The notes beneath the pieces were generated by a model. That model saw only the letters and a list, made by a program, of their open reading frames with translations. It did no database searches and was not told the DNA's origin. From positions 11,532,001 through 11,596,000 of the forward strand of contig OZ024761.1 in the NCBI GenBank assembly GCA_964016885.1: a stretch of DNA of 64,000 nucleotides. The letters run 5' to 3'. The DNA comes from Eledone cirrhosa (taxonomy: Eukaryota). Below, piece by piece: positions 557-29,192 of the stretch. The first letter of the stretch is position 1; every line of letters starts with the position of its first letter. The translations under genes were made by a program, and so were the position numbers.

Positions 557-652
557 TTTGCTGATGACACAGAGCACTAAATTAGTACCATTGGAGTTGA
601 TTTTAAAATCCGAACCATAGAACTTGATGGCAAAACTATTAAACTACAAATA
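557..652 (+). pseudogene. RAB1: Rab1 GTPase pseudogene fragment
   Basis: Translates [31 protein letters not shown]. This matches the conserved Rab1 segment [34 protein letters not shown] apart from a 2-codon deletion, an S>H change and an in-frame stop. Confidence 0.85.
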
Positions 653-3612: not shown

Positions 3613-3769
3613 ATTATATATTTATATATATATAAATGGAAAAGAATGAAATGAAATTTCATTTCTCACTCTTAGTACGGCTGATACATAAATGTAAGTA
3701 TGTATACGTACATACATATATGTATACAGTCGTACAGTAGTGTGTATATATATATATACATACATGCAC

Positions 3770-4130: not shown

Positions 4131-4151
4131 CATGTATGTATATATGTATAC

Positions 4152-5015: not shown

Positions 5016-5139
5016 CGGATATTACCGGAAACCTCCGACCCCTTGCCGCCAATAAGAAGCAGACGACAAACATTTAACACAGAAGTCCAACATTTTATCG
5101 CTCAAACTTTTACATAAAAAGTCGACATTGAAGGTAAAA
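4990..5139 (+). promoter_or_regulatory. Candidate promoter and upstream 5' exon of the PRDM9-like gene
   Basis: Local CpG enrichment, ETS-like ACCGGAAA (~5024), CCAAT (5049-5053) and a splice donor AAG|GTAAAA at 5133/5134. The ATG at 7653 directly follows a splice acceptor (TTTCAG), which implies an upstream exon. Confidence 0.45.
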
Positions 5140-7652: not shown

Positions 7653-7800
7653 ATGGATTCTAAACTAGATATTGATCTCAATACTGTTTCTGGTGATATT
7701 GAAACTTTCTTCACTAAAGCAGAAATGGACAATATGTGTGATTATGAGAAAAAACATCTTCAAAATTTACGTAGAAATTATGAAGCAATGATATTATTAG
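7653..7800 (+). CDS. PRDM9: PRDM9 coding exon 1: ancestral KRAB (aKRAB/SSX-type) domain
   Basis: [36 protein letters not shown] aligns with human PRDM9 [36 protein letters not shown] (recalled). Acceptor AG 7651-7652, donor GT 7801. Confidence 0.88.
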
Positions 7801-10800
7801 GTAAATATATTTTTGCTTATGATTCAGTGTTATGAATTCTTCATAATACAACAATGTTGTACAAAATACATGTATATCTCTTCAATGATATCAGCGATTA
7901 CAAAAAGATTGTTAACTGATCTTTGTTTAGTTAGATTTTCCTTCCTAGAGATATTCAGAATGACTTGTAATGTGTGTCTAAGAACCATCAACCTTCTTTC
8001 TGCAGCTGTTTTGTGACTGTCCAGGGAGTCCACCCATCTATAGGTCCTTAATTCTGGATGGAGTCATAGGGGTGTCATCTTGGACATTTAAACTTACTGG
8101 AGCCCATACATGTCTAGGTTGGAATACAGAAGATTTCTTCCAGAGAAATACAGAGAGAGGTGTTAAACATATATTGAAGAAGAATGAATCCCAGTATTAA
8201 ATTGGTTTTATATTATTTGATCTCAAAAAGATGAGAGGCAAAGCTGATCTTGACAGGGTTTGAACACAGAGGAGAGTGAGCTGGAGCAAATATTACAAAG
8301 CATTATATTGGTTGTCTTGTCAGGTAGGGCACCCATAAAACATTGGTTGTCTTGTACAGGTAGGGGATCCATAAATAGCACTGATTCCACAATAGCTCAG
8401 AAGAAATGTCTTTTACGGTCCTCCAATAATTATGACATCTGAAGAATACTGAGGCTACTGAGAATAACCTACAACTTTGTGAGACAAGTTTAACATCTCT
8501 TTCTATGGATGTGATGCTGTTTCTTAAGTATACAAAGGAGTCCTCAGATTTTAGGTTTTGATTCATTGTGCTTATTGAGGCCTCAAATGGCTGTATTAAC
8601 TCGTGGTTGGAACCGTAGGCTTTCATATGTTTCAGCAGCCATTTAACATATCAATCTTTCATACTACTACAGCAAAAGAAGAAAAGATTGTAGCAGGTAA
8701 TATTTAATCTTTAAGACACTGACATAAAGACTACTATTTCCTGTTTTTTCAAAGTTATGTATGAGAGTGGTACCTTCTGATACCAGTGTCTGTGAAAAGA
8801 GCAATATTATCAGAATAATCCACATTATTTGTCAGTTCACCTTAGTATAATGATAAAGTTGTTGTATAATCTAATTTACCAATAATATCAAATATAGAGT
8901 AAAATACTGACATTAGATTTGAACTCTTGATTAAGTAATCATTTAAACTATCCATATAGCTATTCCACCTCTTCTTCCTCCAGTTATTACTGGGATGGTT
9001 ATGGGGTCAGAGTCCTCAAACATGCCTTCTGGTGGGTCCTATCAGAAACAACCATCTCCAACTGATCCGGCTGGATCCTCAAACAAAACTAACCAAGTCC
9101 ATGGATGCTATCCAACCATGTTACTCGAGGTCTACACCTCAGTCTCCTGCCAATTGATTTTACCCATAAAATCTGTCCATCAATTCTTTCTTTAGACATT
9201 CTAACCACACATCTGTAGTATCGGAGCTGTGACCTCTCAATTCAGAGAAGTAGTCACTCTACTTGAAGCAACTCTCTGATATCTGAGCTATACTCTCTCC
9301 TTTTAAAATGTGTCATATCCTGCATTTTACTGCTTTTTTATTTAAACATTGATTATCTATATTTTTCTGTTAGGTTTACGTCCTATGAAACCATGTTTTA
9401 TGGAGTCCAAGAGATATCAACTGAAAAAAAGGTTTGAAGAAACTAAAAATGACGATGATGAGGATATTGAATGGCTTCCTAGTTATAAAAAGAAAAGACA
9501 ACAACCAGGTATTTAGTTTAAAATCTGTTAAACCTTTCATTACCAGTCTGACCAAAACTGGCTCTATGAAATAAAACTACCCATTCTAAATTGTTATGTA
9601 AATTAAAATCTAGCTTTTATGCAAGAAGTGTATGTTATATTACTATCTTATTGATGAAATAATAATTTTAGTAAATCCTTCAAAATCCTTCAATAATTAA
9701 CTAAAAATACAAAATAGAAATATGAGATTCAGTCATTTCACAACTTTGATATTGTATGATGTGAAAATATAGCTAACTTGGTCTGTAATGATGTATCCAA
9801 CCCATGCTAGCTTGGAAAAAAACATGTAAAATGATGATGATGATGATTATATTAGTTTTCTATTCATAATTATTAATTATGTATTTTGCTATTTATAATA
9901 TATTTTTGTACCTTTACTTCACATTAATGTAAAAATAAATATCTTTATCAGTAATATTATAATATTGCAGCTTTTAGAATTCCTGTTGCTCATACAAAAC
10001 CAACCAAACCAAGAGTAATGATAAAATCTGTAAGTTAAATCATCATCATTTTTTCATCATTTCATTTTACGTCCACTTTTCCCTGCTTGTAAGGGTGGGA
10101 CGGGAACTGATTCTGGCTTGATTTCTACAGCTGGATGCCCTTCCTAACACCAACCTCATTTACAGTGAGTGCTGGGTGCTTTTTTGCCGTGGCACCTCCA
10201 CGACCACTTTGCAGTGGAATAATAGGGACCCCAGTCCCTATCATCTCATTTCTACAGCTGAGTAAACTGGAGCAATGTGAAATAAAGTGTCTTGCTCAAG
10301 GAAATAACATCACCCGGTCTGAGAATTGAACTCACAACCTTTCGATTGCACGGCCAATGCTCTAACCACTAAGCCATGTGCCTCCATATAAATGTACTAT
10401 TTTATTAGATATACAATAAATATATATTTTAGTAAATGTACTATGTTATTAGTTGTTATATATATAGTGGAGGTGTTCAGGATTAAAAGGCAGTGTGTCA
10501 GGAAAAATTGTGCTGTTGTTGGGTAGAAGTGTGTCCTAGATCAGGCATGTCAAACTGAGGGTCCCCTGAGGACCACATGGGTCACATATGTGTTGTCTGA
10601 GGGCCACATGGGTGACATATGTGTTGTCTGAGGGCCACATGGGTCACATGTGTTGTCTGAGGGCCACATGGTTCACATATGTGTTGTCTGAGGGCCACAT
10701 GGTTCGCATATGTGTTGTCTGAGGGCCACATGGTTCACATATGTGTTGTCTGAGGGCCACATGGTTCACATATGTGTTGTCTGAGGGCCACATGGTTCAC

Positions 10801-13800
10801 ATATGTGTTGTCTGAGGGCCAAACACGATAACTAATTGCGAACATTACTACTAATTTTTTTTATTTCGTATTACAAAGATAAAACATGCTTGCGCTGTAG
10901 AAGCTTTTGTGCAGGGCACAGGTGTGCTTGTAAAGGGCCGAATGTTTGGCATGCCTGTAAGGGCACAGGTGTGCTTGTAAAGGGCCCCATGTTTGGCATA
11001 CCTGTCAGGGCACAGGTGTGCTTGTAAAGGGCCGAATGTTTGGCATACCTGTAAGGGCACAGGTGTGCTTGTAAAGGGCCCCATGTTTGGCATACCTGTC
11101 AGGGCACAGGTGTGCTTGTAAAGGGCCGAATGTTTGGCATACCTGTAAGGGCACAGGTGTGCTTGTAAAGGGCCACATGTTTGGCATACCTGTCAGGGTG
11201 CAGGTGTGCTTGTAAAGGGCCGAATGTTTGGCATGCCTGTCCTAGATATCAATGGAGCACAAGACCTCACTGAAACTGAAAAAAAAGACAGCATGGAAGT
11301 GTCATTTTGAGAGACTGATGATTGTGGAGAATGCGTGAGAGGAAGATAGCCAGCCCCAATTGGACCCAACAGAGGGACCAGCAGTACAAATCAGCAACAG
11401 GGTAATATATAAGGCAATTAAGGACATAAAGGCAGGCAAAGCATCGGGTCAATTGTGAATAATTGCTGAGATACTCAAAGTATCTGGGATTGTAGATCAC
11501 ACCACAACCACCCATATTGTAAACCATGTCATATAAAATGGTGCTATACCCAATGACTGGTATAGCAGCATCATTGTCAACTGCTACAAGAGTAAAGGTG
11601 ATGCTCTAGATGGCAGAAACTACTGAGGTATGAAACTGATAGTCCAGGTCATAATACTTTCAGAAAGAGGCATAATACAACTGATTAGGGATCAAATTAA
11701 TCTAGAAAAGATGCAGTTCGGATTTGTGTCAAGTAAACGTTCCATGGATGACCTTTTCCTTGTGATGCAACTGCAGGAGAAATACCAAGCTAAAAGCAAA
11801 CCCCTCTACTTGGCACTTTTGACAGGGTCACCCGTTCTGTAATCTGGTTGGCATAAAGGAACCTAGTAGACGAGTGGCTTGTAAGGGCAGTTCAAGCCAT
11901 GTACAGTGGTGCAGTCAGCAAGGTTAAAATTAATAATGACTATAGTGAGAAGTTTAGCATGCTATTCAGGGTCCACCAAGGCTCTGTCCTTAACCCTCGC
12001 CTGTTTATTATCGTCCACCAGGCTATAATCTCTCTCTCTTTCTCTCTCATGTCCTCCTCCTTAATCATAAAAATATTATTTATTACCTTTACCTATCTAA
12101 ATATAATTAATTAATTAATAACTTTAATTGTTATTGTTTATCCAGATAAAAGCCCGAAAACCAAAAGTAATCAATATCATGTTTCCAATGACATTACGGA
12201 AAAGATCTGAAAATTCTACATCTATGGAAGTCCCTTCTGATGATAGTTTTCTTTGTGAGTATAATGGTATCTTTCTTTTTTAATGTTATAGAACTTATAT
12301 TGTATAGAACATGATAAATGAATAACATATATATATATATATATATATCATCATCGTCTTACGTCCACTTTCCCCTGCTTGCAAGGGTGAGACGGGAATT
12401 GATACTGGCTTGATTTCTACAGCTGGATCATCATCATCATCATCATCACCGTTTTACGTCCGTTCTTCCACGCTAGCATGGGTTAGATGGGTTGTCCTGT
12501 TGTGGGCAGTGTCTGGTCGGCTGACCATGCCTTGCTCATACAGGAACTGATCTGGCTTGATTTCTACAGCTGGATGCCCTTCCTAACACCAACCTCATTT
12601 ACAGTGAGTGCTGGGTGCTTTTTCGTGGCGCCTACACGTCCACTTTACAGTGTGGGCTGGGTGCTTTTTTGCCGTGGCACCTCCACGACCACCTTGCGGT
12701 GGGGAGAGTGGGGGCATATTGTTTATATGCTTCAGCATGTACCCATGGGAGGTCGGGTACCCTGTAATACTGCATGACGCCAGAAGTCACGGTCGTGTGT
12801 CATTGTCTTTGAGAGGTGTAGTTGGGTAAGGTCGGCTTTTATCACCTCATCCCAAGTCATCTTGGGTCTCCCCACTCCGCGGTTTCCATCAACTTCTAGT
12901 GCTCTGCACCTTTTTATGCAGCTGTCATCCTTCATACGCATCACATGTCCATACCAGCGTAACCGCCTCTCCTGCACGCAGCATTTGATTCCTCTTATGC
13001 TCAGTCTCTCTCTCAATTCATTTATGCTTTGTCGTTCACGTATATTACTGTTACACATCCATCGGAGCATGCAGGCTTCGTTTCTCTCTAATCTACGTAA
13101 GTCTTCCACCTTCAGCGCCCAGGTCTCACTACCATGCAACATCGCTGTTCGGATACACGCATCATACAGTCTGCCTTTCATTCTGAGGGAGAAGCCTTTT
13201 GCAGCTAGCAGTGGTAGTAGTTCCCTAAACTTCTTCCATCCCGTTCTTACCCTAGTTATTGTACTTTCTGAGCACCCACCTCCGTTGCTAATTCGGTCAC
13301 CTAGGTAGCAGAAGCTGTCTACTGTTTCTACAGAGCCCTCCCAGAGATTGGTGGTACTTGTTTCCTGTGGCTGTTTGCTTGCTGTTTCAGCACAGCTGCT
13401 GCATGTGAATCCTACATTCTTAATTAAGCTTCCTGAGATCCCGCTACATCTCTTGTGTACCCATTGTTTGCATTTGGGGCAGAGAATGGAGTTCCTACCT
13501 ACACCTTTCCTACATACTGAGCAAGGCCATTTCCCTGAGGGGATCTGGGTTCTGTTTTCTCGTCTACTTACAAGGACCTTAGTCTTTGTCATGTTGACTT
13601 TGAGGCCCTTTCTCTCTAGTCCCTGCTTCCAGGTTTGGAATTTCTTCTCTAGTTCTACCATAGATTCAGCTATGAGTGCGAGGTCATCAGCATACAGGAG
13701 TATGGATGCCCTTCCTAACACCAACCTCATTTACAGTGAGTGTTGGGTGCTTTTTGTTCCGTGGCCCCTCCACGACCACTTTGCAGTGGAATGATATGGA

Positions 13801-16800
13801 CCCCAGTCCCTATCATCTCATTTCTACAGCTGAGTAAACTGGAGCAATGTGAAATAAAGTGTCTTGCTCAAGGAAACAACACATCACCCGGTCTGAGAAT
13901 TGAACTCACAACCTTTCGATTGCAAGGCCAATGCTCTAACCATTAAGCCATGTGCCTCCATTATATATATATAAAAGGTAAACAGAAATAACAACACAAT
14001 CGGTACAGTATATGGAAGGTATATATTAGGTTAACGCTTGATATAGCAGGAAGAGGGTCTTAACGTTTCGGACGCTAGTCCTTCATCAGAAGAAAGAATG
14101 AGAAATAAGATAGATTAAGGGGACGGGCTGGATGGAATTGGAAAAAATGGCTTTAGATAAAAATAACAGGTCCATTCGTGTTGACATCTCTTGCAAAACT
14201 GTTGGTGGTGGCGTTTTGTGTATGATTTGTTTTTTAGAAAAGTGGATGATGGCGTGCGTCTACTTGAGATGGAAAAAAAAACGTTTTGTAAAAAGAGCTA
14301 TTATAATTATATATATATATCATCATATATAGATATGTGTGTGTGTGTTGCAAAGTTATTTCTTTCTTGTTTACTTCCATTAGATTGTGAAGACTGCAAT
14401 GAAGAATATACAGGTGACTGTCCTTATCATGGCCAACTTCTTGTGATTTCAGACAATCAGGTAAAATATCTAAAGTTTTAGTTCATTAGTAAATATTTAC
14501 AATTTCATTAAGGTTTATTTAACCCTTTTATTAACTTAAACCCTTTCACATTTACATTACTCTACTATTATATTTTCATGGTAAAGGTTTTATCTCACAT
14601 AATATGGAAATAATTGTTTCTACTTTTGGCACAAGGCCAGCAAATACCAGTGCATTACTGGTACTTTATTTTATCGACCCCGTAATATGGAAATAATGCG
14701 ATGTTGATGTGATGATATTATTTATTTTGAGAACATGAGTGGTTGGTTTGAACAAAAAGAGATGAGAGAATGATTTTCAAATTTTGTAATTAAACACGGT
14801 TTGATGTGTAATTTTATATGCATGTATATAATAACAATCTATTATTAATAAATATATATAGGGCGGTGGATTGGCAGTATCGGTAGAGGGTCGGACACTA
14901 TGCTTTGACGTATAGAGTTACGACCCTTGCCATTCTGAGTTCAAATCCTGCCGAGGTTAACTTTGCCTTTCATCCTTACGGGGTCGATAAAATAAAGTAC
15001 CAGTAATACACTGGGTAATTGCTGGCCTTGTGCAAAAGTTGTTAATAATTATATAGACCATCTTATATCAGATAAGTTTTCAGAACTGTTAGAAAGATCT
15101 CCAGGTGAGAATTGAAATCCTGGCCTTCAAATTATCAAGGAAGACCAGAATTTTCATCCTCATCTCTGGATCTTCCTAACAAGAATATTTATGGCAAAAC
15201 TTTAAAAAATCAATGAAATTTTATGCCAGATTGTGTTTTGGCTTCCAGGCAATCATTGATATATTTTATTTTTGTCTCTTTACATTTAGGTTTCTAAAGG
15301 ATCTTCCAACAGAGCAAAATTAACTGCTCCACCTTGTATTTCTATCTTAGAATCAAAAATACCAGGAGCTGGTCTTGGGGCTTTTGCTATCACTACAATT
15401 CAAGCTAGAGGTAGATTTGGTCCTTATGAAGGAAAACTTATTAATGATCTGGATGAAGCTCAGATATCTGGTTATAGTTGGCAGGTAAAATATTAAAAAC
15501 AATGGAATATAGTTAAGTTTAAAATATATATCTATATATATTTCCCATGGGAACTCCTGTATGCGCATGATCTCACACTTATAGCTGAATCCATGGTGGA
15601 ACTAGAGAAGAAATTCCAAACATGGAAGCAGGGACTAGAAAGAAAGGGTCTCAAAGTCAACATGACAAAGACTAAGGTTCTTGTAAGTAGACGAGAAAAT
15701 ATAACCCAGATCCCCTCAGGGAAATGGCCTTGTTCAGTATGTAGGAAAGGTGTAGGTAGGAACTCCATCCTCTGCCCCAAATGCAAACAATGGGTACACA
15801 AGTGATGTAGTGGGATCTCAGAAAGTTTAACTAAGAATGTAGGCTTCACATGTAGCAGCTGTGCTGGGTCAGCAAGCAGCAAACAGCCACAGGAAACAAA
15901 CACCATCAAACTCTGGGAGGGCTCTGTAGAAACAGTAGACAGCTTCTGTTACCTAGGTGACTGAATTAGCAGCGGAAGTGAGTCTTCAGAAAGTACAATA
16001 ACTAGGGTAAGAACGGGATGGAAGAAGTTCAAGGAGCTACTGCCACTGCTAGCTGCAAAAGGCTTTTCCCTCAAAATGAAAGGCAGACTGTATGATGCGT
16101 GTATCCGAACAGCAATATTACATGGAAATGAAACCTGGCTGCTGTCTATAGAAGACTTGCGTAGATTAGAAAGAAACAAAGCCTGCATGCTCTGATGGAT
16201 GTGTAATAGTAATATACGCGAACGGCAAAGCATAAATGAATTGAGAGAGAGACTGAGCATAAGAGGAATCAAATAGTGTGTGCAGGAGAGGAGGTTACGT
16301 TGGTATAGACATGTGATGCGTATGAAGGATGACAGCTGCATAAAAAGGTGCAGAACACTAGAAGACCTGGGATGAGGTGATAAAGGCCGACCGTACCCAA
16401 TTGCACCTCACAAGGGCAATGACACACGACCGTGACCTTTGGCGTCACGCAGTAATACAGAAGACCCAAGCCCCCCACAGGAACAAGCCGAAGCTGAAGC
16501 ATATGGACAATATACCTCCCAACCCCTAACCCCACCCCAACCCCACTGCAAAGTGGACGTGTAGGTGCCACGGTAAAAAGCACCCAGCACTCACTGTAAA
16601 TGAGGTTGGTGTTAGGAAGGGCATCAAGCTGTAGAAATCAAGATAGAATCAGTTCCCGTATGAGTAAGACAAGGTCAGCCAACTGGACACTGCCCACAAC
16701 AGGACAACCCGTCTAACCCATGCTAGCGTGGAAGAACGGACATAAAACGGTGATGATGATGATGATGAAATATTGGTAATGTATAAATTATAAACTTGCA

Positions 16801-19800
16801 CTCAGTATACTCTGTAAAATGACAGTGTCTACTTTGTAAAGTGTAGTGCTGGTGCTACCATAAAATGCACTGAGTACATGCTTGTACAGTGGTTGGCAGT
16901 AGGATGGGTGTCCAGCTCTTGAAACCATGAAATATATGAACAAGACAGTTATCTAACTTGTCAGGCCTCAGAACAGGAACACCTCTCCAAACCATGGAAA
17001 AAAATAGATGTAAAGTGTTAATGATGATGATTAGATAACTATTATGTCTATACATTAAACATCACTACTTACATTACAATAATAAATGTATGTATCTGTC
17101 TTAGGTATGGAAGCTATTTCATTCGGTGTCAGCCACATTGTAAACTTTGTTAATATTTAGTATGTAGAATATGATGTGTTAACTAGAAATATATGATTAG
17201 GAAGACAGACAGACAGATATATAGTTAATATTATTCTATCGAGGTTAACTTTGCCTTTCATCCTTACGGGGTCGATAAAATAAAGTACCAGTAATACACT
17301 GGGTAATTGCTGGCCTTGTGCCAAAAGTAGAAACAATTCTATGGCAAATATTATTTTCATTTTTCTGGTAAGTTCATGAGACAATTCCAGACATATTTCA
17401 GTTTATTTTGATCTCATCAGTAAAGTAAAGATTTCAGTGTACTTACTGAAGTAAGGATGAAAGATCCACCAAATGAATGTATAATACTGTACATTGGTTG
17501 GAGTAGAAAAATATAATTAATATTCCCTGAAATTATGTTAATAACTATTATATTGGTCTATGAAGGCCTGGGCACTGTCCCTTCCTCCAAATCAAACAAT
17601 ATTTTTGACAATATTTTTATATATATTTTCACACAGATCAATACTAATGGAAAATCAAACTGTTTTATTGATGCAATTGATGTGTCACTGTCTAACTGGA
17701 TGAGATATGTGAACTGTGCAAGGACTGAAGATGAACAAAATTTAACTGCTTTTCAGTACAATGGTAATATCTATTATAGAACACTAAAGATCATTGTAGC
17801 TGGTGAAGAATTACTAGTATGGTATGGTGAAGAATATGCAAAAGATCTTGGTATATCATACAATGAACATCTGACAACAGAGAATGTTTCATCAGTTGAA
17901 GAACAATTACCTGAAACAATCAACACTACAGGTAAAAATACCTTTGATTTAAATCTTTAATACTTTTACTGCTTTCAATCACTAGACTGCAGCCATATTA
18001 GGGCACCACCTTGATTAATCAATCATATCAAATCCAATACTTTTTTTTTTTTCAAGCTATTCCTTATTATAATAATCTTGTATTTTTGTGAAACTACTAA
18101 GTTATGGAACATAATCACAAACAGACACGTCGACAGAAACACATACACATATATGTAGAGAGATAGATATGTCAATCTATTTATTTCTCTGTCTGTCTGT
18201 CTATATATATGTATATGCATACATACGTATAAACAGACACATTATTAAATATACCCAGACCACTATGTTAAGCGGTAGTACCAGTACACCATAAAATACA
18301 CCCAGTACACTCTGTATAGGAGTTATGCTGGTGTCATGATAAAATACACCCGAGTCCCTGCTCTAAAGTGTTTGGCATTTAGAAGGACATCCAACTGTAG
18401 AAACCAGGTTAAACTGGGATATATGAGAGGGATGTTATATATATAAATGTGATTAACTTTCTTAAATGTTAATCACTTTATGTCGCAATTCATCTGTTCA
18501 TGATCATCATTGTCATCTCACGACTGATACAGTTTACAGTTTCTAATAGATGTTTATATTATATACAGATACAACCCCTCATGCGTATGTTTAATACATA
18601 TGTTTATGAATATATTTTTTTATGTTTACAGATAAGTGCCCTTCATCAATTTCACAAATTGATCAGATCAGATCTTCTGGATACACAGATCAATATAGAA
18701 TCAATACAACTTTGGAAATTGATACTGAAATGAAAATACAATCTGTTAAAATAAAAATAAAATGTAAAAAGGATACCTCATTATCAGATTGCAAAAAAAT
18801 GGATTCCAGTTGGAAACCATTCCAATGTAAGGAATGTGGTAAGACATTCTCTGACTCTGGCATGTTCACTAGACATGAGAGAATACATACTGGAGAGAAA
18901 CCATTCCAACGTAAGGAATGTGGTAAGACATTCTCTGTCTCTAGTGCCTTAACAACATATAAGAGGACACATACTGGAGAGAAACTATTCCAATGTAAGG
19001 AATGTGGTAAGACATTCTCTGACTCTGGCATGTTCACTAGACATGAGAGAACACATACTGGAGAGAAATCATTCAAATGTAAGGAATGTGGTAAGACATT
19101 CTCTGACTCTAGTACCTTAACAACACATGAGAGAACACATACTGGAGAGAAACCATACCAATGTAAGCAATGTGGGAAGACATTCTCTGTCTCTAGTCAC
19201 TTAACAACACATGAGAGAACACATACTGGAGAGAAACCATACCAATGTAAGGAATGTGGGAAGACATTCTCTGACTCTAGTAACTTAACAACACATGAGA
19301 GAACACATACTGGAGAGAAACCTTTCAAATGTAATGTATGTGGTAAGACATTCTCTGACTCTAGTACCTTAACAACACATGAGAGAACACATACTGGAGA
19401 GAAGCCTTACAAACGTAAGGTATGTGGTAAGACATTCTCTATCTCTAGTCACTTAACAAAACATAAGAGGACACATACTGGAGAGAAACCTTACAAACGT
19501 AAGATATGTGGTAAGACATTCTCTATCTCTAGTCACTTAACAAGACATAAGAGGACACATACTGGAGAGAAACCATACAAATGTAAGGTATGTGGTAAGA
19601 CATTCTCTGTCTCTGGTGCCTTAACAACACATGAGAGAACACATACTGGAGAGAAACCATACAAATGTAAGGTATGTGGTAAGACATTCTCTGTCTCTGG
19701 TAACTTAACAACACATGAGAGAACACATACTGGAGAGAAACCATACAAATGTAAGGTATGTGGTAAGACATTCTCTGTCTCTGGTGCCTTAACAACACAT

Positions 19801-22104
19801 GAGAGAACACATACTGGAGAGAAACCATTCCAATGTAAGGAATGTGGTAAGACATTCTCTGTCTCTGGTAACTTAACAAAACATAAGAGGACACATACTG
19901 GAGAGAAACCTTACCAATGTAAGGAATGTGGTAAGACATTCTCTGTCTCTAGTCACTTAACAACACATGAGAGGACACATACTGGAGAGAAACCATTCAA
20001 ATGTAAGGAATGTGGTAAGACATTCTCTGACTCTGGTACCTTAACAACACATGAGAGGCCACATACTGGAGAAAAACCTTACCAATGTAAGGAATGTGGT
20101 AAAACATTCTCTGTCTCTAGTCACTTAACAACACATGAGAGGACACATACTGGAGAGAAACCATTCCAATGTAAGGAATGTGGTAAGACATTCTCTGACT
20201 CTGGTACCTTAACAACACATAAGAGGACACATACTGGAGAGCAACCTTACCAATGTAAGGAATGTGGTAAGACATTCTCTGTCTCTAGTGCCTTAACAAC
20301 ACATAAGAGAACACATACTGGAGAGAAACCTTACCAATGTAAGGAATGTGGTAAGACATTCTCTGACTCTAGTAACTTAACAACACATGAGAGGACACAT
20401 ACTGGAGAGAAACCATTCCAATGTAAGGAATGTGGTAAGACATTCTCTGACTCTAGTAACTTAACAACACATGAGAGGACACATACTGGAGAGAAACCTT
20501 TCAAATGTAAGGTATGTGGTAAGACATTCTCTATCTCTAGTCACTTAACAACACATGAGAGAACACATACTGGAGAGAAACCTTTCAAATGTAAGGAATG
20601 TGGTAAGACATTCTCTGACTCTAGTCACTTAACAACACATGAGAGAACACATACTGGAGAGAAACCTTACCAATGTAAGGAATGTGGTAAGACATTCTCT
20701 GACTCTAGTGCCTTAACAACACATGAGAGGACACATACTGTAGAGAAACCTTACCAATGTAAGGAATGTGGTAAGACATTCTCTGTCTCTAGTCACTTAA
20801 CAACACATGAGAGGACACATACTGGAGAGAAACCTTACCAATGTAAGGAATGTGGTAAGACATTCTCTGTCTCTAGTACCTTAACAAAACATGAGAGGAC
20901 ACATACTGGAGAGAAACCATTCCAATGTAAGGAATGTGGTAAGACATTCTCTGACTCTAGTGACTTAACAAAACATAAGAGGACACATACTGGAGAGAAA
21001 CCTTTCCAATGTAAGGAATGTGGTAAGACATTCTCTGTCTCTGGTACCTTAACAACACATGAGAGGACACATACTGGAGAGAAACCATTCCAATGTAAGG
21101 AATGTGGTAAGACATTCTCTGACTCTAGTGACTTAACAAAACATAAGAGGACACATACTGGAGAGAAACCTTTCCAATGTAAGGAATGTGGTAAGACATT
21201 CTCTGTCTCTGGTACCTTAACAACACATGAGAGGACACATACTGGAGAGAAACCTTTCCAATGTAAGGAATGTGGTAAGACATTCTCTGTCTCTAGTACC
21301 TTAACAAAACATGAGAGGACACATACTGGAGAGAAACCTTTCCAATGTAAGGAATGTGGTAAGACATTCTCTGTCTCTAGTACCTTAACAACACATGAGA
21401 GGACACATACTGGAGAGAAACCATTCCAATGTAAGGAATGTGGTAAGACATTCTCTGTCTCTGGTACCTTAACAACACATGAGAGGACACATACTGGAGA
21501 GAAACCATTCCAATGTAAGGAATGTGGTAAGACATTCTCTGTCTCTAGTCACTTAACAAAACATAAGAGGACACATACTGGAGAGAAACCTTACCAATGT
21601 AAGGAATGTGGTAAAACATTCTCTGTCGCTAGTCACTTAACAAAACATAAGAGGACACATACTGGAGAGAAACCTTACCAATGTAAGGAATGTGGTAAGA
21701 CATTCTCTGACTCTGGTACCTTAACAACACATGAGAGGACACATACTGGAGAGAAACCTTACCAATGTAAGGAATGTGGTAAGACATTCTCTGTCTCTAG
21801 TGCCTTAACAACACATAAGAGAACACATACTGGAGAGAAACCTTACCAATGTAAGGAATGTGGTAAGACATTCTCTGTCTCTAGTACCTTAACAAAACAT
21901 GAGAGGACACATACTGGAGAGAAACCATTCCAATGTAAGGAATGTGGTAAGACATTCTCTGTCTCTGGTACCTTAACAAAACATAAGAGGACACATACTG
22001 GAGAGAAACCATTCCAATGTAAGGAATGTGGTAAGACATTCTCTGACTCTAGTACCTTAACAAGACATGAGAGGACACATACTTATAAATGTAAGGAATA
22101 TTAA
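7653..22104 (+). CDS. PRDM9: PRDM9-like histone methyltransferase, full length: KRAB-SSXRD-Zn knuckle-PR/SET-39x C2H2; join(7653..7800,9374..9508,9971..10029,12146..12254,14384..14460,15290..15484,17637..17931,18632..22104), 1496 aa
   Basis: All seven introns are GT-AG with compatible phases (1,1,0,1,0,0,1). The spliced length of 4491 nt is an open frame ending in TAA, and the domains match vertebrate PRDM9 motifs in the correct order. Confidence 0.9.
9374..9508 (+). CDS. PRDM9: PRDM9 coding exon 2: KRAB C-terminal part and acidic EW.P motif
   Basis: [45 protein letters not shown], compared with human GLRATRPAFM...DSDEEWTPRQQ; AG/GT flanks, phase 1/1. Confidence 0.88.
9971..10029 (+). CDS. 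PRDM9: PRDM9 coding exon 3 (basic linker)
   Basis: TTGCAG acceptor and GTAAGT donor; reads [20 protein letters not shown]. Its 59 nt are needed to go from phase 1 to phase 0. Confidence 0.75.
10040..10388 (-). mobile_element. tRNA-derived SINE family B, full length
   Basis: Reverse complement of 5683-6190 without the MITE; (CAT)n tail at the left. Confidence 0.85.
10542..11239. mobile_element. hAT (Charlie-like) MITE with internal 31-bp and 47-bp tandem arrays
   Basis: TIRs CAGGCATGTCAAAC...GTTTGGCATGCCTG and a perfect 8-bp TSD TCCTAGAT (10534-10541, 11240-11247). Contains ~8x 31 bp (10568-10820) and 7x 47 bp (10913-11239). Confidence 0.88.
11520..12030 (+). mobile_element. Degraded RTE LINE RT fragment (N-terminal RT motifs)
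   Basis: [44 protein letters not shown] and [11 protein letters not shown] motifs, with stops and frameshifts. Confidence 0.8.
12146..12254 (+). CDS. PRDM9: PRDM9 coding exon 4: SSXRD motif
   Basis: [36 protein letters not shown] resembles the SSXRD Y.LRERK...EP.DDDYL; TCCAG acceptor, GTGAGT donor. Confidence 0.85.
12348..13961 (-). mobile_element. SINE family B split by a nested RTE LINE (SINE halves 13703-13961 and 12348-12428)
   Basis: The SINE consensus CTACAGCTGGAT^GCCCTTCC is interrupted at this point; TGGAT is duplicated at 12424-12428 and 13703-13707. Confidence 0.8.
12429..13702 (-). mobile_element. 5'-truncated young RTE LINE; uninterrupted ORF from LLYADDL to the C-terminus, with internal PHD-type finger
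   Basis: ORF 12732..13730 contains YADD, a C4HC3 finger, [14 protein letters not shown] and GRPKMTW; (GAT)n tail at 12429-12448. Confidence 0.92.
14058..14093 (-). ncRNA. Minimal type I hammerhead ribozyme (Penelope-type)
   Basis: Minus strand reads TCTT-CTGATGA-A-GGAC-TAGC-GTCC-GAAA-CG-TT-AAGA: canonical core, 4-bp stems I and II, palindromic stem III AACGTT. Confidence 0.8.
14384..14460 (+). CDS. PRDM9: PRDM9 coding exon 5: pre-SET zinc knuckle
   Basis: [26 protein letters not shown] (C-x2-C-x7-C-x2-H); AG/GT flanks. Confidence 0.9.
14862..15040 (+). mobile_element. tRNA-derived SINE family A
   Basis: A/B-box-like head GGCGGTGGATTGGCAGTATCGG...GAGTTCAAATCC; near-identical to 25741-25928. 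Confidence 0.85.
15290..15484 (+). CDS. PRDM9: PRDM9 coding exon 6: PR/SET domain N-terminal half
   Basis: [65 protein letters not shown], containing the IP.AGLG, FGPYEG and GYSW motifs. Confidence 0.92.
15545..16768 (+). mobile_element. 5'-truncated RTE LINE, same family as 12429-13702, opposite orientation
   Basis: Starts at [10 protein letters not shown]; high nucleotide similarity to the reverse complement of 12429-13702; several stops; (GAT)n tail. Confidence 0.92.
17238..17337 (+). mobile_element. SINE family A 3' fragment
   Basis: GAGGTTAACTTTGCCTTTCATCCTTACGGGGTCGATAAAATAAAGTACCAG core. Confidence 0.8.
17637..17931 (+). CDS. PRDM9: PRDM9 coding exon 7: PR/SET domain C-terminal half
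   Basis: FIDA.D...[55 protein letters not shown], close to vertebrate PRDM9 [22 protein letters not shown]...ELLVWYGDEY. Confidence 0.95.
18632..22104 (+). CDS. PRDM9: PRDM9 terminal exon: spacer plus 39 tandem C2H2 zinc fingers (84-bp minisatellite)
   Basis: The first Cys codons run from 18826 to 22018 at exact 84-bp spacing (39 units) with TGEKP linkers. Fingers 2, 8 and 9 have C>R at the first ligand. Confidence 0.95.
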
Positions 22105-22469
22105 TTATTTATTATTTTATATAAAAAAAAAAAATGACATTTAATTTCTGTATATTATGATTACCTCACACATGTAAACATACACATGCACGTACTGACA
22201 GATACAGACATACTGATAAATATGGACACATATATATATATATACACATATAGACAAAGAAACATGCAGACAGATACAGATACGCACACATACACCAAGA
22301 AACACACCTACACACAAGCAGGCAGACATACACACACACATATACACAAAGAAATGCACCTACACATGCAGACAGATAAGCATACGCACACACATACATA
22401 TAAACAAACGTAAATATATACATAGTCATATATAAAAATATGCATACATGCCAACACATAAACACTCAC

Positions 22470-23770
22470 ATACCTACACATGTATATATATACAAAGACA
22501 TTTACATACACATGTATATATAGAATGACATTTACATACACATGTATATATAGAATGACATATACATACACATGTATATATAGAATGACATATACACAAA
22601 CACATGTATATATACAAAGACACACACATACATATATATATATATACAAAGACATACAAACGTGTATATATATACAAAGACATACATATACACGTATATG
22701 TATATACAAAGACATGTACATACACAAACACAAACATATATACAGACATATACATACACATATATATACAGATACATACATACACATGTATATATACAAA
22801 GAAACATACATACACATGTATATATACAAAGATACATACACATGTATATATACAAAGAAACATACATACACATGTATATATTCAAAGATACATACATACA
22901 CATGTATATACACAAAGATACATACATACACATGTATATATACAAAGATACATACACATGTATATACACAAAGATACATACATACACATGTATATATACA
23001 CAAAGATACATACATACACATGTATATATACAAAGAAACATACATACACATGTATATATACAAAGATACATACATACACATGTATATATACAAAGAAACA
23101 TACATACACATGTATATATACAAAGATACATACATACACATGTATATATACAAAGATACATACATACACATGTATATATACAAAGATACATACATACACA
23201 TGTATATATACAAAGAAACATACATACACATGTATATATACAAAGAAACATACATACACATGTATATATACAAAGAAACATGTATATATACAAAGATACA
23301 TACATACACATGTATATATACAAAGAAACATACATACACATGTATATATACAAAGATACATATATACACATGTATATACACAAAGATACATACATACACA
23401 TGTATATATACAAAGATACATACATACACGTGTATATATACAAAGAAACACATGCATGTATATATATATAAAGGCACATACATACACATGTATATATACA
23501 AAGATACATACATACACATGTATATATACAAAGATACATATATACAAATGTATATATACAAAGAAACATACATACACATGTATATATACAAAGATACATA
23601 CATACACATGTATATATACAAAGAAACATACATACACATGTATATATACAAAGATACATACATACACGTATATATACAAAGATACATACATACACATGTA
23701 TATATACAAAGATACATACATACACATGCATGTATATATATATAAAGGCACATACATACACATATATATA
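22470..23770. repeat. 30-bp AT/CA-rich minisatellite (TACATACACATGTATATATACAAAGATACA)n
   Basis: Tandem copies clearest at 22780-23720; explains the spurious long ORFs in all frames. Confidence 0.9.
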
Positions 23771-24189
23771 TATCTATATCAAACAATACTCCATGTTATA
23801 TATATTAAATTAAATGATTTAATTGACTGATAATCGTTAAGACAGAAATATTTAATTACTGCTGTATTAATCTCTGTGATTGTCTTATGGACATATATTG
23901 GTAAATATTAAAGTTATTTAATAGATTCTAAGGATACAGCAGTAATTAAATATTCTCGTTGTCTTAATTAAAACATTTGTCAATCAATTAATTAATTTAA
24001 TTTAATTTAAATAATTTAATTTAATTTAAATCCTGGTTATTTCTATTCATATATATGAGTATGACCAAATATTAGTATGGTTTGTTGATTACTCAATGAA
24101 TACAATTTTACAATAGATTAGAAGCACTCAACAGCTGGTTTTCCTGGAGTTTTTAATATTATTCAAAATATTAACAAATGAAAAATATT

Positions 24190-24467
24190 CTCATAATCAA
24201 AATATATACTTTATTATATATATTTCAAAGGTACTGTGTTGTTTTTTTTCCAGTACGTCCTCATCAGACAACATATATGATTTGATATATGACATACCGC
24301 TATGGTCTTGATTATTCAATTCCACTGCCAATACTGGAGTTGAATAATCAAGACCATAGCGGTATGTCATATATAAAATCATATATGTTGTCTGATGAGG
24401 ACGTACTGAAAAAAACAACACAGTACCTTTGAAATATATATAATAAAGTATATATTTTGATTATGAG
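24190..24467. repeat. Fold-back element (~130-bp arms) with a hammerhead motif on each arm
   Basis: The arms are reverse complements. The + arm at 24386-24448 reads TTGT-CTGATGA-GGACGTACTG..CAGTACCTTT-GAAA-TATATA-TA-ATAA. Confidence 0.75.
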
Positions 24468-25740
24468 TATATATATATGTTCTGTGATTAGAGATTTACT
24501 GATTAGATTAAACTCTGAAGTGACTCTTACCTTCATATGGTTGTGTTATCCACTATTATATATATATATATATATAAGCAAAGAGATATTTAATTTGTTG
24601 GTTATTCAACAAATTTATTTATAACAGATTCAAAGCACTCAACAGTATTTTTCTGGAGTATAATATCAATGATATTAATACATGGAAACTATATTTATAA
24701 AACCATATTTATTTTATTATATATATTTCAAGGGTACCAAAATTTTGGTACGCTCTCATCAGATAAAATACAAAAATTGTTTTATATATAGTGACATATC
24801 CAAAAACTAGAACTTATCGTTTTAAGTTCAGTTTGGATAGTGGAAGAAATTTCAAATCTTAGGATGAAATATGTTAATGAGGCTAAACGAACAATTTAAA
24901 AAGATTGTTATATTTAGACGCTAGGTAAATTTAAATAATTATTAGGATTATTTTTATTTTTAAGGGAAGAGGTAGATAATGCTATCTAAATACAAATATA
25001 AAAGAATTTTTATCTTTGAAAATATGTAATATAGGATACCTTATAATAATATATAAAAAAATATCTACATATTTTGTATATATCTTAATTAAAATAATAA
25101 TAATGAAATTATTGTGTAAAGTGCTCAGGTGCACTACAACTCGTCAAAGGTGTATGTATAGTACATAGAATAATACACAAATGTCAGAGAAGTACATGTG
25201 TGTATGTGTTAGCTGTAGTGTTGGCGGATCTCGGAAAGCATGGAGGCCTTAAAGGATGCAGTGTCTCGACAGCTAACAACTGATGCAGGTAGTTTGAATA
25301 TTCTTTTAAAGTAAATTCTAGTATAAACGACAAATGTAACCTATTTTAACTAAGAAATATTGGAGTTATCTTTTCCTTTATAATGTAACATGCTTAAATA
25401 TTTCTTCTAAGTAACAACTAAACTTTACATAAATATTAAATTTTCTGTATAATTTCGTTAACTTACTAAATTTTGTAAATGTCTTCCTATCTTGATTGAA
25501 CTATAGAATATACAAAATAATCTTCTATAATAAAAATAGAACTACTTTCTTTTTTCTTAACTATATATTGAAGATGTAAATATGAAATTCTTCGAAACCC
25601 TTAACATACATAAATATTTAAATTATATATCTAAGAAAAAAACATATATACTCACCAAAATTATTTATATAAATAACCTGTTGTAATATAATAAAGTAAA
25701 TTATACTTACAACCTTAATTCCTCATAAAATATACTTAAG

Positions 25741-25928: not shown

Positions 25929-26437
25929 ATATATATTATAACTCACGATTTGAATAGATCCAATATTTAGTATCTCTCAATTTTTTAAATTGGTATTCCA
26001 CCACTTCGACACATTTATAATTCTCATATTATTTTATAGATACTACCAAAATATATAATTATATAATTAAATAAATAATTATAATTATATCACTCTCTTT
26101 ACACCATCACTGATTTGATCCATACAATTATATTTTAATAATAATAGTGTATTTCCAAATATAATATACTTGTTTTCTTATAATCATTCCTTAAATTTTC
26201 TTTCACCCTAATATTAACATCTCTCTCTTCTTCCCTTAAAAATAAAAAAAATAAAAATAATCCTAATAATTATTTAAATTTACCTAGCGTCTAAATATAA
26301 CAATCTTTTTAAATTGTTCGTTTAGCCTCATTAACATATTTCATCCTAAGATTTGAAATTTCTTCCACTATCCAAACTGAACTTAAAACGATAAGTTCTA
26401 GTTTTTGGATATGTCACTATATATAAAACAATTTTTG

Positions 26438-26498
26438 TATTTTATCTGATGAGAGCGTACCAAAGTTTTGGTACCCTTGAAATATATATAATAAAATA
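26438..26498 (+). ncRNA. Type I hammerhead ribozyme motif
   Basis: 8-bp stem I TATTTTAT/ATAAAATA, CTGATGA, stem II GAGCGTACCAAA/TTTGGTACCCTT, GAAA, palindromic stem III ATATATAT, AUA cleavage triplet. Confidence 0.78.
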
Positions 26499-26539
26499 AA
26501 TATGGTTTTATAAATATAGTTTCCATGTATTAATATCAT

Positions 26540-26576
<37 letters not shown>

Positions 26577-27479: not shown

Positions 27480-28090
27480 CATAGTTATATAACTTGTATA
27501 TATAATACCAAGTATATATTGTGGTTATATAACAAATATATATATATATATGGGGTATATATTGTGGTTATATAACAAATATGTATATATATATGGGGTA
27601 TATATTGTGGTTATATAACAAATATGTATATATGGGGTATATATTGTGGTGATATAACAAATATGTATATATATATGGGGTATATATTGTGGTTATATAA
27701 CAAATATGTATATATAATATCAAGTATATATTGTGGTTATATAACAAATATATATATATGGGGTATATATTGTGGTTATATAACAAATATGTATATATAA
27801 TATCAAGTATATATTGTGGTTATATAACAAATATATATATATATGGGGTATATATTGTGGTTATATAACAAATATGTATATATATATATTGGGTATATAT
27901 TGTGGTTATATAACAAATATGTATATATATATATATTGGGTATATATTGTGGTTATATAACAAATATGTATATATATTGGGTATATATTGTGGTTATATA
28001 ACAAATATGTATATATATGGGGTATATATTTTGGTTATATCACATGTATGTGTAATATCGAATATATATAGCGTAGTTATATAACAAATG
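27480..28090. repeat. ~40-bp AT-rich minisatellite (GGGTATATATTGTGGTTATATAACAAATATGTATATAT..)
   Basis: About 14 tandem copies with variable (TA)n length. Confidence 0.85.
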
Positions 28091-29192
28091 TATATATAAT
28101 ACAGACCTGCCAACCTCTAAAACCCAAACAGGAAGTACCATGAAAAAAGGGCCCCAAAATGGGGAGATTTTACATAATAAATGCTGTAGCCATTTTCACA
28201 AGAGAAGATATCTTTCATCCACCCCAAAGGCTATTGAAAATCTCCCCATTGGACGGGGAAAGTGTATAGGTCTATATAATATCAAGTGTATATTGTGGTG
28301 ATATCACTAACATATGTTTGATATTTGATATCAATCAGACATTTAATATTTTCCCATAATCAAAATTGCCAAAAAATTTGAAATGCCAAATATTTGAAAT
28401 AAAAATGAGAATAACATGCAAAAAAGAAAATAATTTTAATTAATTAATAAAATGGGTTAAAATTAAATAAATTTTCTTTATAAACAAGATGGAGTTGACT
28501 TTCCTGTTGTTTCTTAATCTTTAGCATGCTAGAAATGTTTATGAATTGCTTCCATTAACACTATATAATACATCAAGGGAAGAATGCCTGCACTCAGTGG
28601 TTTTTAAGTGCTGGCATGACTGCCAGTCAGTAGGTTTTACATCAGTGGCCTCTTAGCCTCTGGCTCAAAAGCCTATCCTGGAGGCATTGGGGGTTTGGAG
28701 TCACAGTGTTCCTTCTCCTAGGCTGGTTGCCAACCAAGGCTGATATGAGCCCAGCCTGTCCATCACTCAGTTATACTGCTGAGTACCCAGTCGCGCCTGC
28801 AGCAAGCTCTGTAGAAACAGGAGGTACCATGGTAAGATGCTACTCGAGACACAGTTGAGAACAAGAGGCCACATGCATGTAGACACATCAGCTCTCACTT
28901 CCACTGGGCAGGAGAGGGTCTGCAATCACATCACTATTCTTAACCCCCTCATATATATGTATGTATATACAATATAGATAACAATCAAATTTTGTTTAGG
29001 CATTTAATTGCTAATGATCGTTTCTTCCAGATATTGGTCTGGAATCATTGGAGCATATAAAATGTTAAAACAAATAAATTCCTAATCATTAGAACAGTCA
29101 GCAGGATATCGGTATTATATATCAGGTAATATACAATATTACCTTTATCTTATTTATAATTCTATATATAAGTATAACTATTATATATATAT

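What the first reader, a model, noticed from the sequence alone, without database searches (positions are those of the whole stretch)
18817..22083. 39-finger minisatellite-like array with diversity focused at DNA-contact positions
Seen: 39 exact 84-bp units that are almost identical at the DNA level, including most synonymous sites. Helix residues vary at -1 (D/V/I), +2 (S/G), +3 (T/H/N/A/D/M) and +6 (T/K/R), while +1 (S) and +5 (T) are nearly fixed. There are also some two-state changes outside the helix (Y/F, Q/K, E/V, E/K). Block duplication is visible: fingers 26-27 repeat as 28-29 ([16 protein letters not shown]). Established: concerted evolution with excess variation at -1, 2, 3 and 6 is the signature of hotspot-specifying PRDM9. 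The array is roughly three times as long as typical human or mouse alleles. Inference: no Arg or Gln at -1 and few Arg at +6 suggest a G-poor, possibly repetitive target.
Basis: partly seen in the sequence, partly recalled or inferred. Interest (0 to 1): 0.78.

Follow-up and report, generated by a model that had tools for sequence, protein, structure and literature searches.

The report
Octopod PRDM9 with 39-finger array
The repeat is the DNA-binding end of an intact PRDM9 gene, the gene that places recombination hotspots in mammals; here it sits most likely in an octopod and has a zinc-finger array longer than any in the papers I read, though whether this copy still directs recombination is untested.

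Summary
The array is real: 39 gap-free 84-bp units at 18814-22089, but only 36 are intact C2H2 fingers. It is the last exon of an 8-exon gene (7653-22104) with canonical splice sites and one 1496-aa open frame. The gene encodes an ancestral KRAB, an SSXRD-like segment, a zinc knuckle and a PR/SET domain that best matches human PRDM9 and keeps all three catalytic tyrosines. Its nearest relative is an Octopus bimaculoides protein. Contact positions carry about half of the amino-acid diversity (0.48-0.52). That exceeds all 119 scored non-PRDM9 controls and matches salmonid hotspot-directing copies, but also lies near a defunct salmon paralog (0.47). Unusual features: 39 fingers (longest in papers read: 23), no post-SET finger (also absent in O. 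bimaculoides), and a degenerate SSXRD. Contigs from the same sample show a second, diverged PRDM9-like copy, so this one could be a relaxed duplicate. The 'G-poor, repetitive target' inference is not supported. Population polymorphism, expression and rank within the genome could not be tested. Verdict: PRDM9 family member (about 0.95), hotspot-directing function about 0.55.

The parts
7653..7800 (+). Coding exon 1 (begins with ATG right after an AG acceptor): ancestral KRAB-A
   Evidence: 49% identity over 41 aa to the N-terminus of Argopecten PRDM9-like P0003; spliced model scores 62.5 bits, E 1e-21, on an aKRAB profile built from 48 other PR proteins; AG/GT
9374..9508 (+). Coding exon 2: end of the KRAB region (P-x-F-M motif) and acidic stretch ending in EW-x-P
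   Evidence: tblastn from P0003, E 4e-4; in frame with AG/GT
9971..10029 (+). Coding exon 3: short basic linker
   Evidence: AG/GT, keeps the frame, aligns colinearly with P0003; not seen by tblastn alone, so the least certain exon
12146..12254 (+). Coding exon 4: SSXRD-like segment, degenerate (lacks the usual Tyr)
   Evidence: 12.9 bits on a profile of 37 homologues, against a best shuffle of 6.7; 34 of 37 homologues score higher leave-one-out; Tyr present in 33 of 37 and absent here
14384..14460 (+). Coding exon 5: pre-SET zinc knuckle; Gln at the position after His-Gly
   Evidence: Pfam PF18445, E 5e-4, below the curated cut-off; 0 of 96 homologues have Gln there, 74 have Pro
15290..15484 (+). 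Coding exon 6: PR/SET first half with the Y276-equivalent tyrosine
   Evidence: Best solved-structure match human PRDM9, E 1e-8; Pfam PRDM2_PR
15530..16765 (.). LINE-derived insertion in the intron between the two SET exons; absent from the related organism B
   Evidence: One organism-B contig joins 15529 directly to 16765; 91-92% inverted match to the LINE piece at 12893-13701
17637..17931 (+). Coding exon 7: PR/SET second half with the Y341- and Y357-equivalent tyrosines
   Evidence: Human PRDM9 88.7 bits, next PRDM (PRDM14) 63.9; Pfam PRDM2_PR E 1e-29
18632..18813 (+). Start of the last exon: linker with a lone Cys where other PRDM9s carry the post-SET zinc finger
   Evidence: No C2H2-like pattern in six frames of 17637-18813; O. 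bimaculoides P0002 lacks it too; that the Cys is a relic of the finger is inference
18814..22089 (+). Array of 39 x 84-bp zinc-finger units, 36 intact; stop codon at 22102-22104
18898..18981 (+). Finger 2, degenerate (first Cys and first His lost)
19402..19569 (+). Fingers 8 and 9, degenerate (first Cys lost)
19570..22089 (+). Fingers 10-39: unbroken intact run, contact-site share of diversity 0.52
   Evidence: 26 of 26 five-finger windows distinct
20914..21249 (+). Recent two-finger block duplication (fingers 26-27 = 28-29)
   Evidence: identical DNA units; the longest exact repeat in the array, 198 bp

Best explanation
This is a full-length PRDM9 orthologue of a cephalopod, most likely an octopod, that probably works as in vertebrates. 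SHOWN: one open frame with aKRAB, SSXRD-like segment, zinc knuckle, PR/SET with three catalytic tyrosines and a single-exon minisatellite finger array. The array is homogenised and locally duplicated, with excess amino-acid change at -1, +2, +3 and +6. INFERRED from vertebrate PRDM9: in meiotic cells subsets of about five adjacent fingers bind DNA motifs, the SET domain trimethylates H3K4 and H3K36 on nearby nucleosomes, and the N-terminus recruits the break machinery. Bound motifs erode, which favours new finger combinations made by unequal exchange and conversion. The length of 39 units results from that unequal exchange. The functional core is probably fingers 10-39, with a decaying N-terminal part.
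For: Eight exons with canonical AG/GT give 1496 aa and one terminal stop; residues 9-318 align at 44% identity with Argopecten PRDM9-like P0003. Both SET exons match human and mouse PRDM9 ahead of every other solved PRDM, and the aligned tyrosines are chain positions 82, 147 and 163 of the 195-415 construct, i.e. Y276, Y341 and Y357. The exon layout (KRAB 2 exons, SSXRD 1, SET 2, array 1) is the one described for PRDM9. The SET tree joins the gene with O. bimaculoides P0002 (100/99) inside the molluscs, next to the Lottia protein that Lorenz et al. list as a PRDM9 orthologue. Contact-site share is 0.50 for intact fingers and 0.52 for fingers 10-39, above all 119 scored of 120 non-PRDM9 controls (median 0.27, max 0.47) and equal to the functional salmonid copies (0.49, 0.55). 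piN at contact codons is 3.4 times piS, against 0.51 elsewhere; divergence rises with distance along the array (rho 0.24, P 0.001). The finger repertoire differs from P0002, whose four canonical fingers have Arg or Gln at -1. Contigs of the same organism match exons 5-7 and the entry into finger 1 with 0 differing letters in run X1.
Against: The SSXRD scores below 34 of 37 homologues and lacks the Tyr found in 33 of 37. The post-SET finger is missing (present in 61 of 85 PR proteins long enough to tell). The knuckle has Gln where 0 of 96 homologues do. 3 of 39 fingers are broken. The strict Baker rule (first run of four or more fingers, here fingers 3-7) gives only 0.40. Four non-contact codons also vary above the synonymous rate (1.6-2.1 times). 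The value of 0.50 is below the median of 19 KRAB-bearing homologues (0.57) and near a defunct salmon paralog (0.471). A second, roughly 90%-identical PRDM9-like sequence is present in the same sample and reads Pro at the knuckle site. piN/piS among fingers is not a formal test under gene conversion, and piS rests mainly on two common synonymous sites. The controls are nearly all vertebrate, not from this genome.
Confidence: 0.55

Rival explanations
1. A PRDM9 duplicate under relaxed selection: the second copy in the genome directs recombination, while this copy keeps an inherited signature and its array drifts in length by minisatellite turnover.
For: A second copy in runs X1/X2 has 13 differing letters and 5 gaps in 150 intron bases and shares 6 listed letters with organism B. 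This copy has a derived Gln in the knuckle, a degenerate SSXRD, three broken fingers and a LINE insertion that organism B lacks. The signature persists after loss of function in salmon (0.471). PRDM9 birth-and-death is common in cnidarians.
Against: The frame is intact over 1496 codons with all splice sites and all three tyrosines. Fingers 10-39 are all intact, with piN/piS 4.6 at contact codons. Several apparently functional full-length paralogs coexist in 10 of 28 cnidarians. Organism B also carries changes at conserved SET positions (6 of 10 listed codon changes non-synonymous, partial list), so fast change is not peculiar to this copy. The second sequence may be a diverged allele and was seen only in fragments.
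Confidence: 0.27
2. A PRDM9-derived chromatin regulator co-opted to bind transposons or satellites, as KRAB zinc-finger proteins do, with contact-site diversity driven by repeat evolution.
For: Octopus zinc-finger ORFs were among those analysed for predicted binding to transposon sequences, and positive selection at contact residues is an arms-race signature (passages). A 32-kb satellite lies 10 kb downstream.
Against: Strong homogenisation among fingers is typical of PRDM9, not of the control arrays (non-contact aa identity 0.91 against a median of 0.66). The SET domain has the residues of an H3K4/H3K36 writer, an activating mark. A crude motif scan found no preference for any of 7 repeats, though the code is weak.
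Confidence: 0.1
3. The gene is real but the 39-unit length is inflated by assembly, for example by two alleles joined end to end.
For: Minisatellite arrays are error-prone in assemblies. The array was not checked against reads; contigs break at 18842, inside finger 1.
Against: 34 of 39 units are distinct. The longest exact repeat is 198 bp and no offset shows a long duplicated block. No frameshift or indel occurs in 3.3 kb, and the same window resolves 32 kb of a 40-bp satellite, which suggests long reads (inference).
Confidence: 0.07

Closest known systems
Vertebrate full-length PRDM9 (human, mouse, salmonid alpha1)
   Same: Domain order KRAB-SSXRD-knuckle-PR/SET-array, three catalytic tyrosines, single-exon 84-bp minisatellite, diversity at -1, 2, 3 and 6 (share 0.49-0.55 in salmonids).
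   Different: 39 units against 3-19; no post-SET finger (human has one); degenerate SSXRD; no Arg or Gln at -1; broken fingers inside the array; function shown in vertebrates but not here.
Mollusc PRDM9 (Lottia gigantea; Argopecten, Pecten, Mytilus, Saccostrea, Mactra and Liolophura gene models)
   Same: aKRAB, knuckle and SET align colinearly (44% to P0003); concerted evolution was reported for the 23 Lottia fingers.
   Different: 8 of 9 non-octopod mollusc proteins long enough to tell keep the post-SET finger. The array here is longer, and Oliver et al. name positive selection for Nematostella and Capitella, not Lottia.
Octopus bimaculoides XP_014789468.1 ('zinc finger protein 391, partial')
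   Same: Sister in the SET tree (100/99, 73% identity over 140 columns); also lacks the post-SET finger; its first finger resembles fingers 1 and 3 here.
   Different: Partial model that starts at the SET domain, not named PRDM9; its canonical fingers use Arg or Gln at -1. At 73% identity it may be a paralogue or a distant orthologue.
Cnidarian full-length PRDM9 (bioRxiv 10.64898/2026.09.07.749791)
   Same: Invertebrate full-length genes with the same exon layout, intact tyrosines, diversity share 0.29-1.0 and frequent recent paralogs.
   Different: 3-17 fingers in full-length copies, up to 20 in truncated ones; a different phylum.
Salmonid PRDM9 alpha2.2 (inferred to have lost the hotspot role)
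   Same: A second PRDM9 copy with a residual diversity share of 0.37-0.47.
   Different: Usually KRAB-less and with low allelic diversity; the KRAB here is intact and allelic diversity is unknown.

Membership tests
PRDM9 (full-length, hotspot-directing) | PR/SET domain closest to PRDM9 among PRDMs | tested here: met
   88.7 bits to human PRDM9 against 63.9 or less for 10 other PRDM paralogs among the 15 matches; the first SET exon also ranks PRDM9 first. The tree held no non-PRDM9 paralog.
PRDM9 (full-length, hotspot-directing) | Catalytic Y276, Y341 and Y357 | tested here: met
   All three aligned residues are Tyr
PRDM9 (full-length, hotspot-directing) | N-terminal ancestral KRAB | tested here: met
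   62.5 bits, E 1e-21 on a profile of 48 homologues (members 29-99.6 bits, lower quartile 67). Pfam KRAB gave no hit on the single exon, and its precomputed list also lacks KRAB for scallop P0003.
PRDM9 (full-length, hotspot-directing) | SSXRD | tested here: inconclusive
   Right position and above all shuffles (12.9 against 6.7 bits), but below 34 of 37 homologues and without the Tyr of 33 of 37; no Pfam hit
PRDM9 (full-length, hotspot-directing) | Pre-SET zinc knuckle | tested here: met
   Cys/His ligands present; PF18445 E 5e-4, under the cut-off; unusual Gln next to it
PRDM9 (full-length, hotspot-directing) | Post-SET zinc finger (usual, but not one of the four domains that define full length) | tested here: not met
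   None in six frames of 17637-18813; the first C2H2 comes 99 aa after the SET end
PRDM9 (full-length, hotspot-directing) | Single-exon tandem C2H2 array under concerted evolution | tested here: met
   94.3% DNA identity outside contact codons; distance decay and block duplication
PRDM9 (full-length, hotspot-directing) | Diversity concentrated at -1, 2, 3 and 6 | tested here: met
   0.48-0.52 (0.40 under the strict first-run rule); published full-length range 0.33-1.0
PRDM9 (full-length, hotspot-directing) | Top 5% of this statistic among C2H2 genes of the same genome | not testable with these tools
   No genome held; the array search returned 120 proteins, none labelled as a cephalopod
PRDM9 (full-length, hotspot-directing) | High allelic diversity within the species | not testable with these tools
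   The read-laying tool does not take long repeats; only the stretch up to finger 2 was examined
PRDM9 (full-length, hotspot-directing) | Meiotic expression, H3K4me3/H3K36me3 at bound sites, hotspot location | not testable with these tools
   Needs gonad RNA, ChIP and DSB maps
PRDM9 (full-length, hotspot-directing) | ZCWPW1 and ZCWPW2 present in the genome | not testable with these tools
   No genome held
Ordinary expanded cephalopod C2H2 gene or KRAB-ZNF-type repressor | Finger array without a PRDM9-type SET domain and with diverged fingers | tested here: not met
   SET present in frame; non-contact aa identity 0.91 against a control median of 0.66, max 0.86

The most novel reading that the evidence does not exclude
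Octopods place recombination with a PRDM9 variant that has shed the post-SET finger and uses a very long, low-specificity array (no Arg or Gln at -1, Thr at +6 in 25 of 39). Since about five fingers suffice for binding (abstract), the 30-finger intact run offers 26 distinct five-finger windows. One allele would then act like a pool of alleles, spreading breaks over many motifs and slowing hotspot erosion in a large, repeat-rich genome, possibly alongside a second paralog.
Probability: 0.2. Interest if true: 0.8.

Novelty: new variant of a known kind. Interest (0 to 1): 0.52.

Why it matters
Whether PRDM9 directs recombination outside vertebrates is open; a 2026 preprint calls its invertebrate role largely unknown. 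This gene gives a concrete cephalopod test case: unique flanks allow one long amplicon to genotype the whole array, and the exon model allows expression and enzyme assays. Searches for PRDM9 with 'octopus' and with 'cephalopod' listed no paper on a cephalopod PRDM9. A 2025 paper on cephalopod C2H2 expansions has no occurrence of 'PRDM', and the aKRAB table of Lorenz et al. has no cephalopod row under four names tried. The library lacks most subscription journals, so this is not proof of absence. An array nearly twice the longest seen in these papers bears on what limits PRDM9 array length, and the loss of the post-SET finger in two octopod sequences suggests that finger is dispensable. Mollusc PRDM9 itself has been known since 2009, so the existence of the gene is no surprise.

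Tried and rejected
No whole genome was held, so the genome-wide ranking and the ZCWPW1/2 check were impossible. A word-based search with the KRAB exon found nothing (0 of 13 candidates), which is weak evidence. A search with the first 15 fingers returned 120 listed proteins, nearly all vertebrate and none labelled as a cephalopod, so they served only as a generic control. No RNA holder was listed; this says nothing about expression. The RAD-seq run X5 barely covered the exons, and contig depth over the first fingers is not a copy number, so neither was used. A predicted motif from a recalled recognition code was scanned against the 40-, 30-, 43- and 47-bp repeats and (TC)n, (AC)n, (AT)n: 8 to 39 of 40 finger-order shuffles did as well, so a repetitive target was rejected as unsupported. 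A hidden exon for the post-SET finger was sought in six frames and not found. Rfam found nothing in 1-34000. An autoinhibitory role of the PRDM9 post-SET finger is recalled, but I found no passage stating it, so I do not rely on it. One paper search was swamped by unrelated mollusc papers. Earlier scan findings held nothing relevant (one unrelated primate minisatellite). Branchiostoma P0208 was dropped from the tree because my pattern did not find its SET end.

Full report
1. Observation. The array is there: 39 consecutive 84-bp units at 18814-22089 without indels. Two corrections apply. Fingers 2, 8 and 9 lack the first zinc-binding Cys, and finger 2 also lacks the first His, so 36 of 39 are intact, in runs of 1, 5 and 30. 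Mean pairwise DNA identity is 91.6% (77-100%): 94.3% outside and 75.1% inside the four contact codons.

2. Is the focus on contact residues real? The share of amino-acid heterozygosity at -1, 2, 3 and 6 (statistic as defined in PMC5519329, section read) is 0.48 for all 39 units, 0.50 for the 36 intact ones, 0.52 for fingers 10-39 and 0.40 for fingers 3-7, which is what the strict first-run rule would use. It is 0.487 over the 28 unique intact units. Of 120 non-PRDM9 zinc-finger proteins, 119 had a scorable array: median 0.27, maximum 0.47. Of 198 PR-domain homologues, 55 were scorable; the 19 with a KRAB had a median of 0.57 and the 36 without a median of 0.36. Published values are 0.33-1.0 for full-length vertebrate genes, 0.49 and 0.55 for the active salmonid copies, and 0.471 and 0.367 for copies inferred to be defunct. 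Among fingers, piN/piS is 3.4 at contact codons and 0.51 elsewhere, and 11 of 27 minimal amino-acid changes fall in 4 of 26 codons (P=0.0013). Four non-contact codons also exceed the synonymous rate (1.6-2.1 times), and divergence grows with distance along the array (rho 0.24, P=0.001). The signature is therefore real but moderate, and gene conversion makes these ratios descriptive only.

3. What the array belongs to. Upstream on the same strand lie seven more exons: 7653-7800, 9374-9508, 9971-10029, 12146-12254, 14384-14460, 15290-15484 and 17637-17931; the array exon is 18632-22104. All junctions are AG/GT and the joined frame is 1496 aa with a single terminal stop. Residues 9-318 align at 44% identity with a scallop PRDM9-like protein. 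Both SET exons match human and mouse PRDM9 before any other solved PRDM, with Tyr at the positions of Y276, Y341 and Y357. The N-terminus scores 62.5 bits on an aKRAB profile built without it. A SET tree of 19 proteins pairs the gene with Octopus bimaculoides XP_014789468.1 (100/99) inside a mollusc group, so the organism is most likely an octopod; this is inference. The splice model is predicted and not confirmed by RNA; exon 3 is the least certain.

4. Departures from the standard gene. (a) Length. Vertebrate alleles have 3-19 fingers, cnidarian full-length genes 3-17 and Lottia 23. The most fingers in any of the 198 PR homologues was 22, and the longest tandem run among the 55 scorable ones was 13. 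Database models often truncate such arrays, so 39 is the longest I saw, not a proven record. (b) No post-SET finger. None is found in six frames; it is also missing in the O. bimaculoides protein but present in 8 of 9 other mollusc proteins long enough to tell. The active mouse SET structure has a truncated post-SET region (figure legend), so catalysis need not be lost. (c) The SSXRD-like segment beats all shuffles but scores below 34 of 37 homologues and lacks their usual Tyr. (d) Gln follows the knuckle His-Gly, where 0 of 96 homologues have it. (e) No Arg or Gln at -1, whereas these make up 54% of -1 residues in the KRAB-bearing homologues.

5. Public sequence data. Three runs of one sample hold 91-92% of the sampled words, and one run of a second organism holds 6%. 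Laid on 14300-18990 (4 of 7 listed runs), X1 contigs match exons 5-7 and the start of finger 1 with no differing letter. This sample may be the source of the window, so it is not independent support. X1 and X2 also hold a second sequence, about 91% identical in intron 6, whose letters at 14435, 17105, 17111, 17475, 17497 and 17659 agree with organism B; the one at 14435 gives the usual Pro. This points to a second PRDM9-like copy, either a paralog or a strongly diverged allele. One organism-B contig runs from exon 5 to exon 7 and lacks the LINE piece at 15530-16765. Of its listed coding differences 6 of 10 codons are non-synonymous, but the list is partial (512 rows not shown). The array itself was not examined in reads, so its length and alleles remain open.

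6. Mechanism. The best reading is canonical PRDM9 action: finger subsets bind motifs, the SET domain writes H3K4me3 and H3K36me3, breaks form there, motifs erode, and new finger combinations are favoured (established for vertebrates; inferred here, 0.55). The main rival is a relaxed duplicate (0.27), since the signature is known to outlast function. Co-option as a repeat-binding regulator (0.10) and inflated length (0.07) are less likely. Against an artefact: 34 of 39 units are distinct and the longest exact repeat is 198 bp.

7. Target. With a recognition code recalled from the literature and of low accuracy, the contacted strand is predicted as C31, T30, G24, A5 and 27 unspecified of 117 positions. 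That is pyrimidine-rich and A-poor, not G-poor, in DNA of 35% G+C. None of seven repeats matched better than shuffled finger order. The review notes that such predictions are unreliable in vivo.

8. Novelty. PRDM9 with concerted finger evolution was reported in a snail, a polychaete and a sea anemone in 2009 (PMC2779102, passages and one section), and across 28 cnidarians in 2026 (parts 1-4 of 7 read; its supplements are closed and may list longer arrays). Searches for PRDM9 with octopus, cephalopod and mollus- listed no cephalopod PRDM9 study. Other papers seen: PMC5519329 (passages and two sections; Supplementary file 3B not read); PMC8835667 (passages and a supplement search); PMC11703093 (passages and one section); PMC6116924 (passages and part of one section); PMC8600002, PMC12513265, PMC10547256, PMC10451705, PMC8985178 and PMC6917776 (passages only); PMC5440498 (abstract); PMC12047536 (search listing only).

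9. Verdict. An intact cephalopod PRDM9 of variant build, with an exceptionally long array. Family membership is about 0.95 and hotspot function about 0.55. It is a new variant of a known kind, and its value is that it makes PRDM9 function in a cephalopod directly testable. Interest 0.52.

Noticed in passing
window 32024-64000: A 40-bp satellite of about 800 copies (94% matches) fills half the window, directly after a 200-N gap and 10 kb downstream of the gene; strong GC skew (+0.4), with variants spaced at multiples of 40 bp. The gene may sit beside a pericentromeric or subtelomeric block.
   Followed up: partly
window 14393-14568 and 17060-17700 (runs X1, X2): A second PRDM9-like sequence in the same sample shares six listed letters with organism B: a paralog or a deeply diverged allele.
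   Followed up: partly
window 22467-23772: A 1.3-kb AT-rich 30-bp minisatellite starts about 360 bp after the stop codon; the first AATAAA/ATTAAA hexamer comes only after it (23804), so it may lie in the 3' UTR.
   Followed up: no
window 12732-13730 and 15530-16765: Two LINE reverse-transcriptase-tail fragments, 91-92% identical and inverted, flank coding exons 5 and 6; recombination between them would invert these exons. The downstream one is absent in organism B.
   Followed up: partly
window 5050-5133: Candidate non-coding first exon ending at a strong donor (AAG|GTAAAA); coding exon 1 begins with ATG right after an acceptor, so an upstream exon is needed. Read from the sequence only.
   Followed up: no
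window 18814-19065: Fingers 1 and 3 (Met at +3, Phe at +4) resemble the first, degenerate finger of the O. bimaculoides protein, while the rest of the array does not; an older, slowly changing first finger.
   Followed up: partly
window 18814-22089: Basic residues at +6 co-occur with Lys at +8 (8 of 14 against 4 of 25, Fisher P=0.012): linkage on conversion tracts or a functional pairing.
   Followed up: partly
window 581-655: A short frame resembling the switch region of a Rab-family GTPase (recalled motif), next to a LINE fragment; probably a retro-copied piece.
   Followed up: no
window 3749-4150, 24240-24450, 24663-24961 with 26247-26545: A 400-bp near-perfect palindrome, a second of about 200 bp seen in the sequence, and a 299-bp perfect inverted repeat with 1.3 kb between the arms, probably MITE or DNA-transposon ends.
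   Followed up: no
window 10566-10821, 10912-11241, 27512-28098: Further minisatellites of 31, 47 and 43 bp, two of them in intron 3 of the gene.
   Followed up: no
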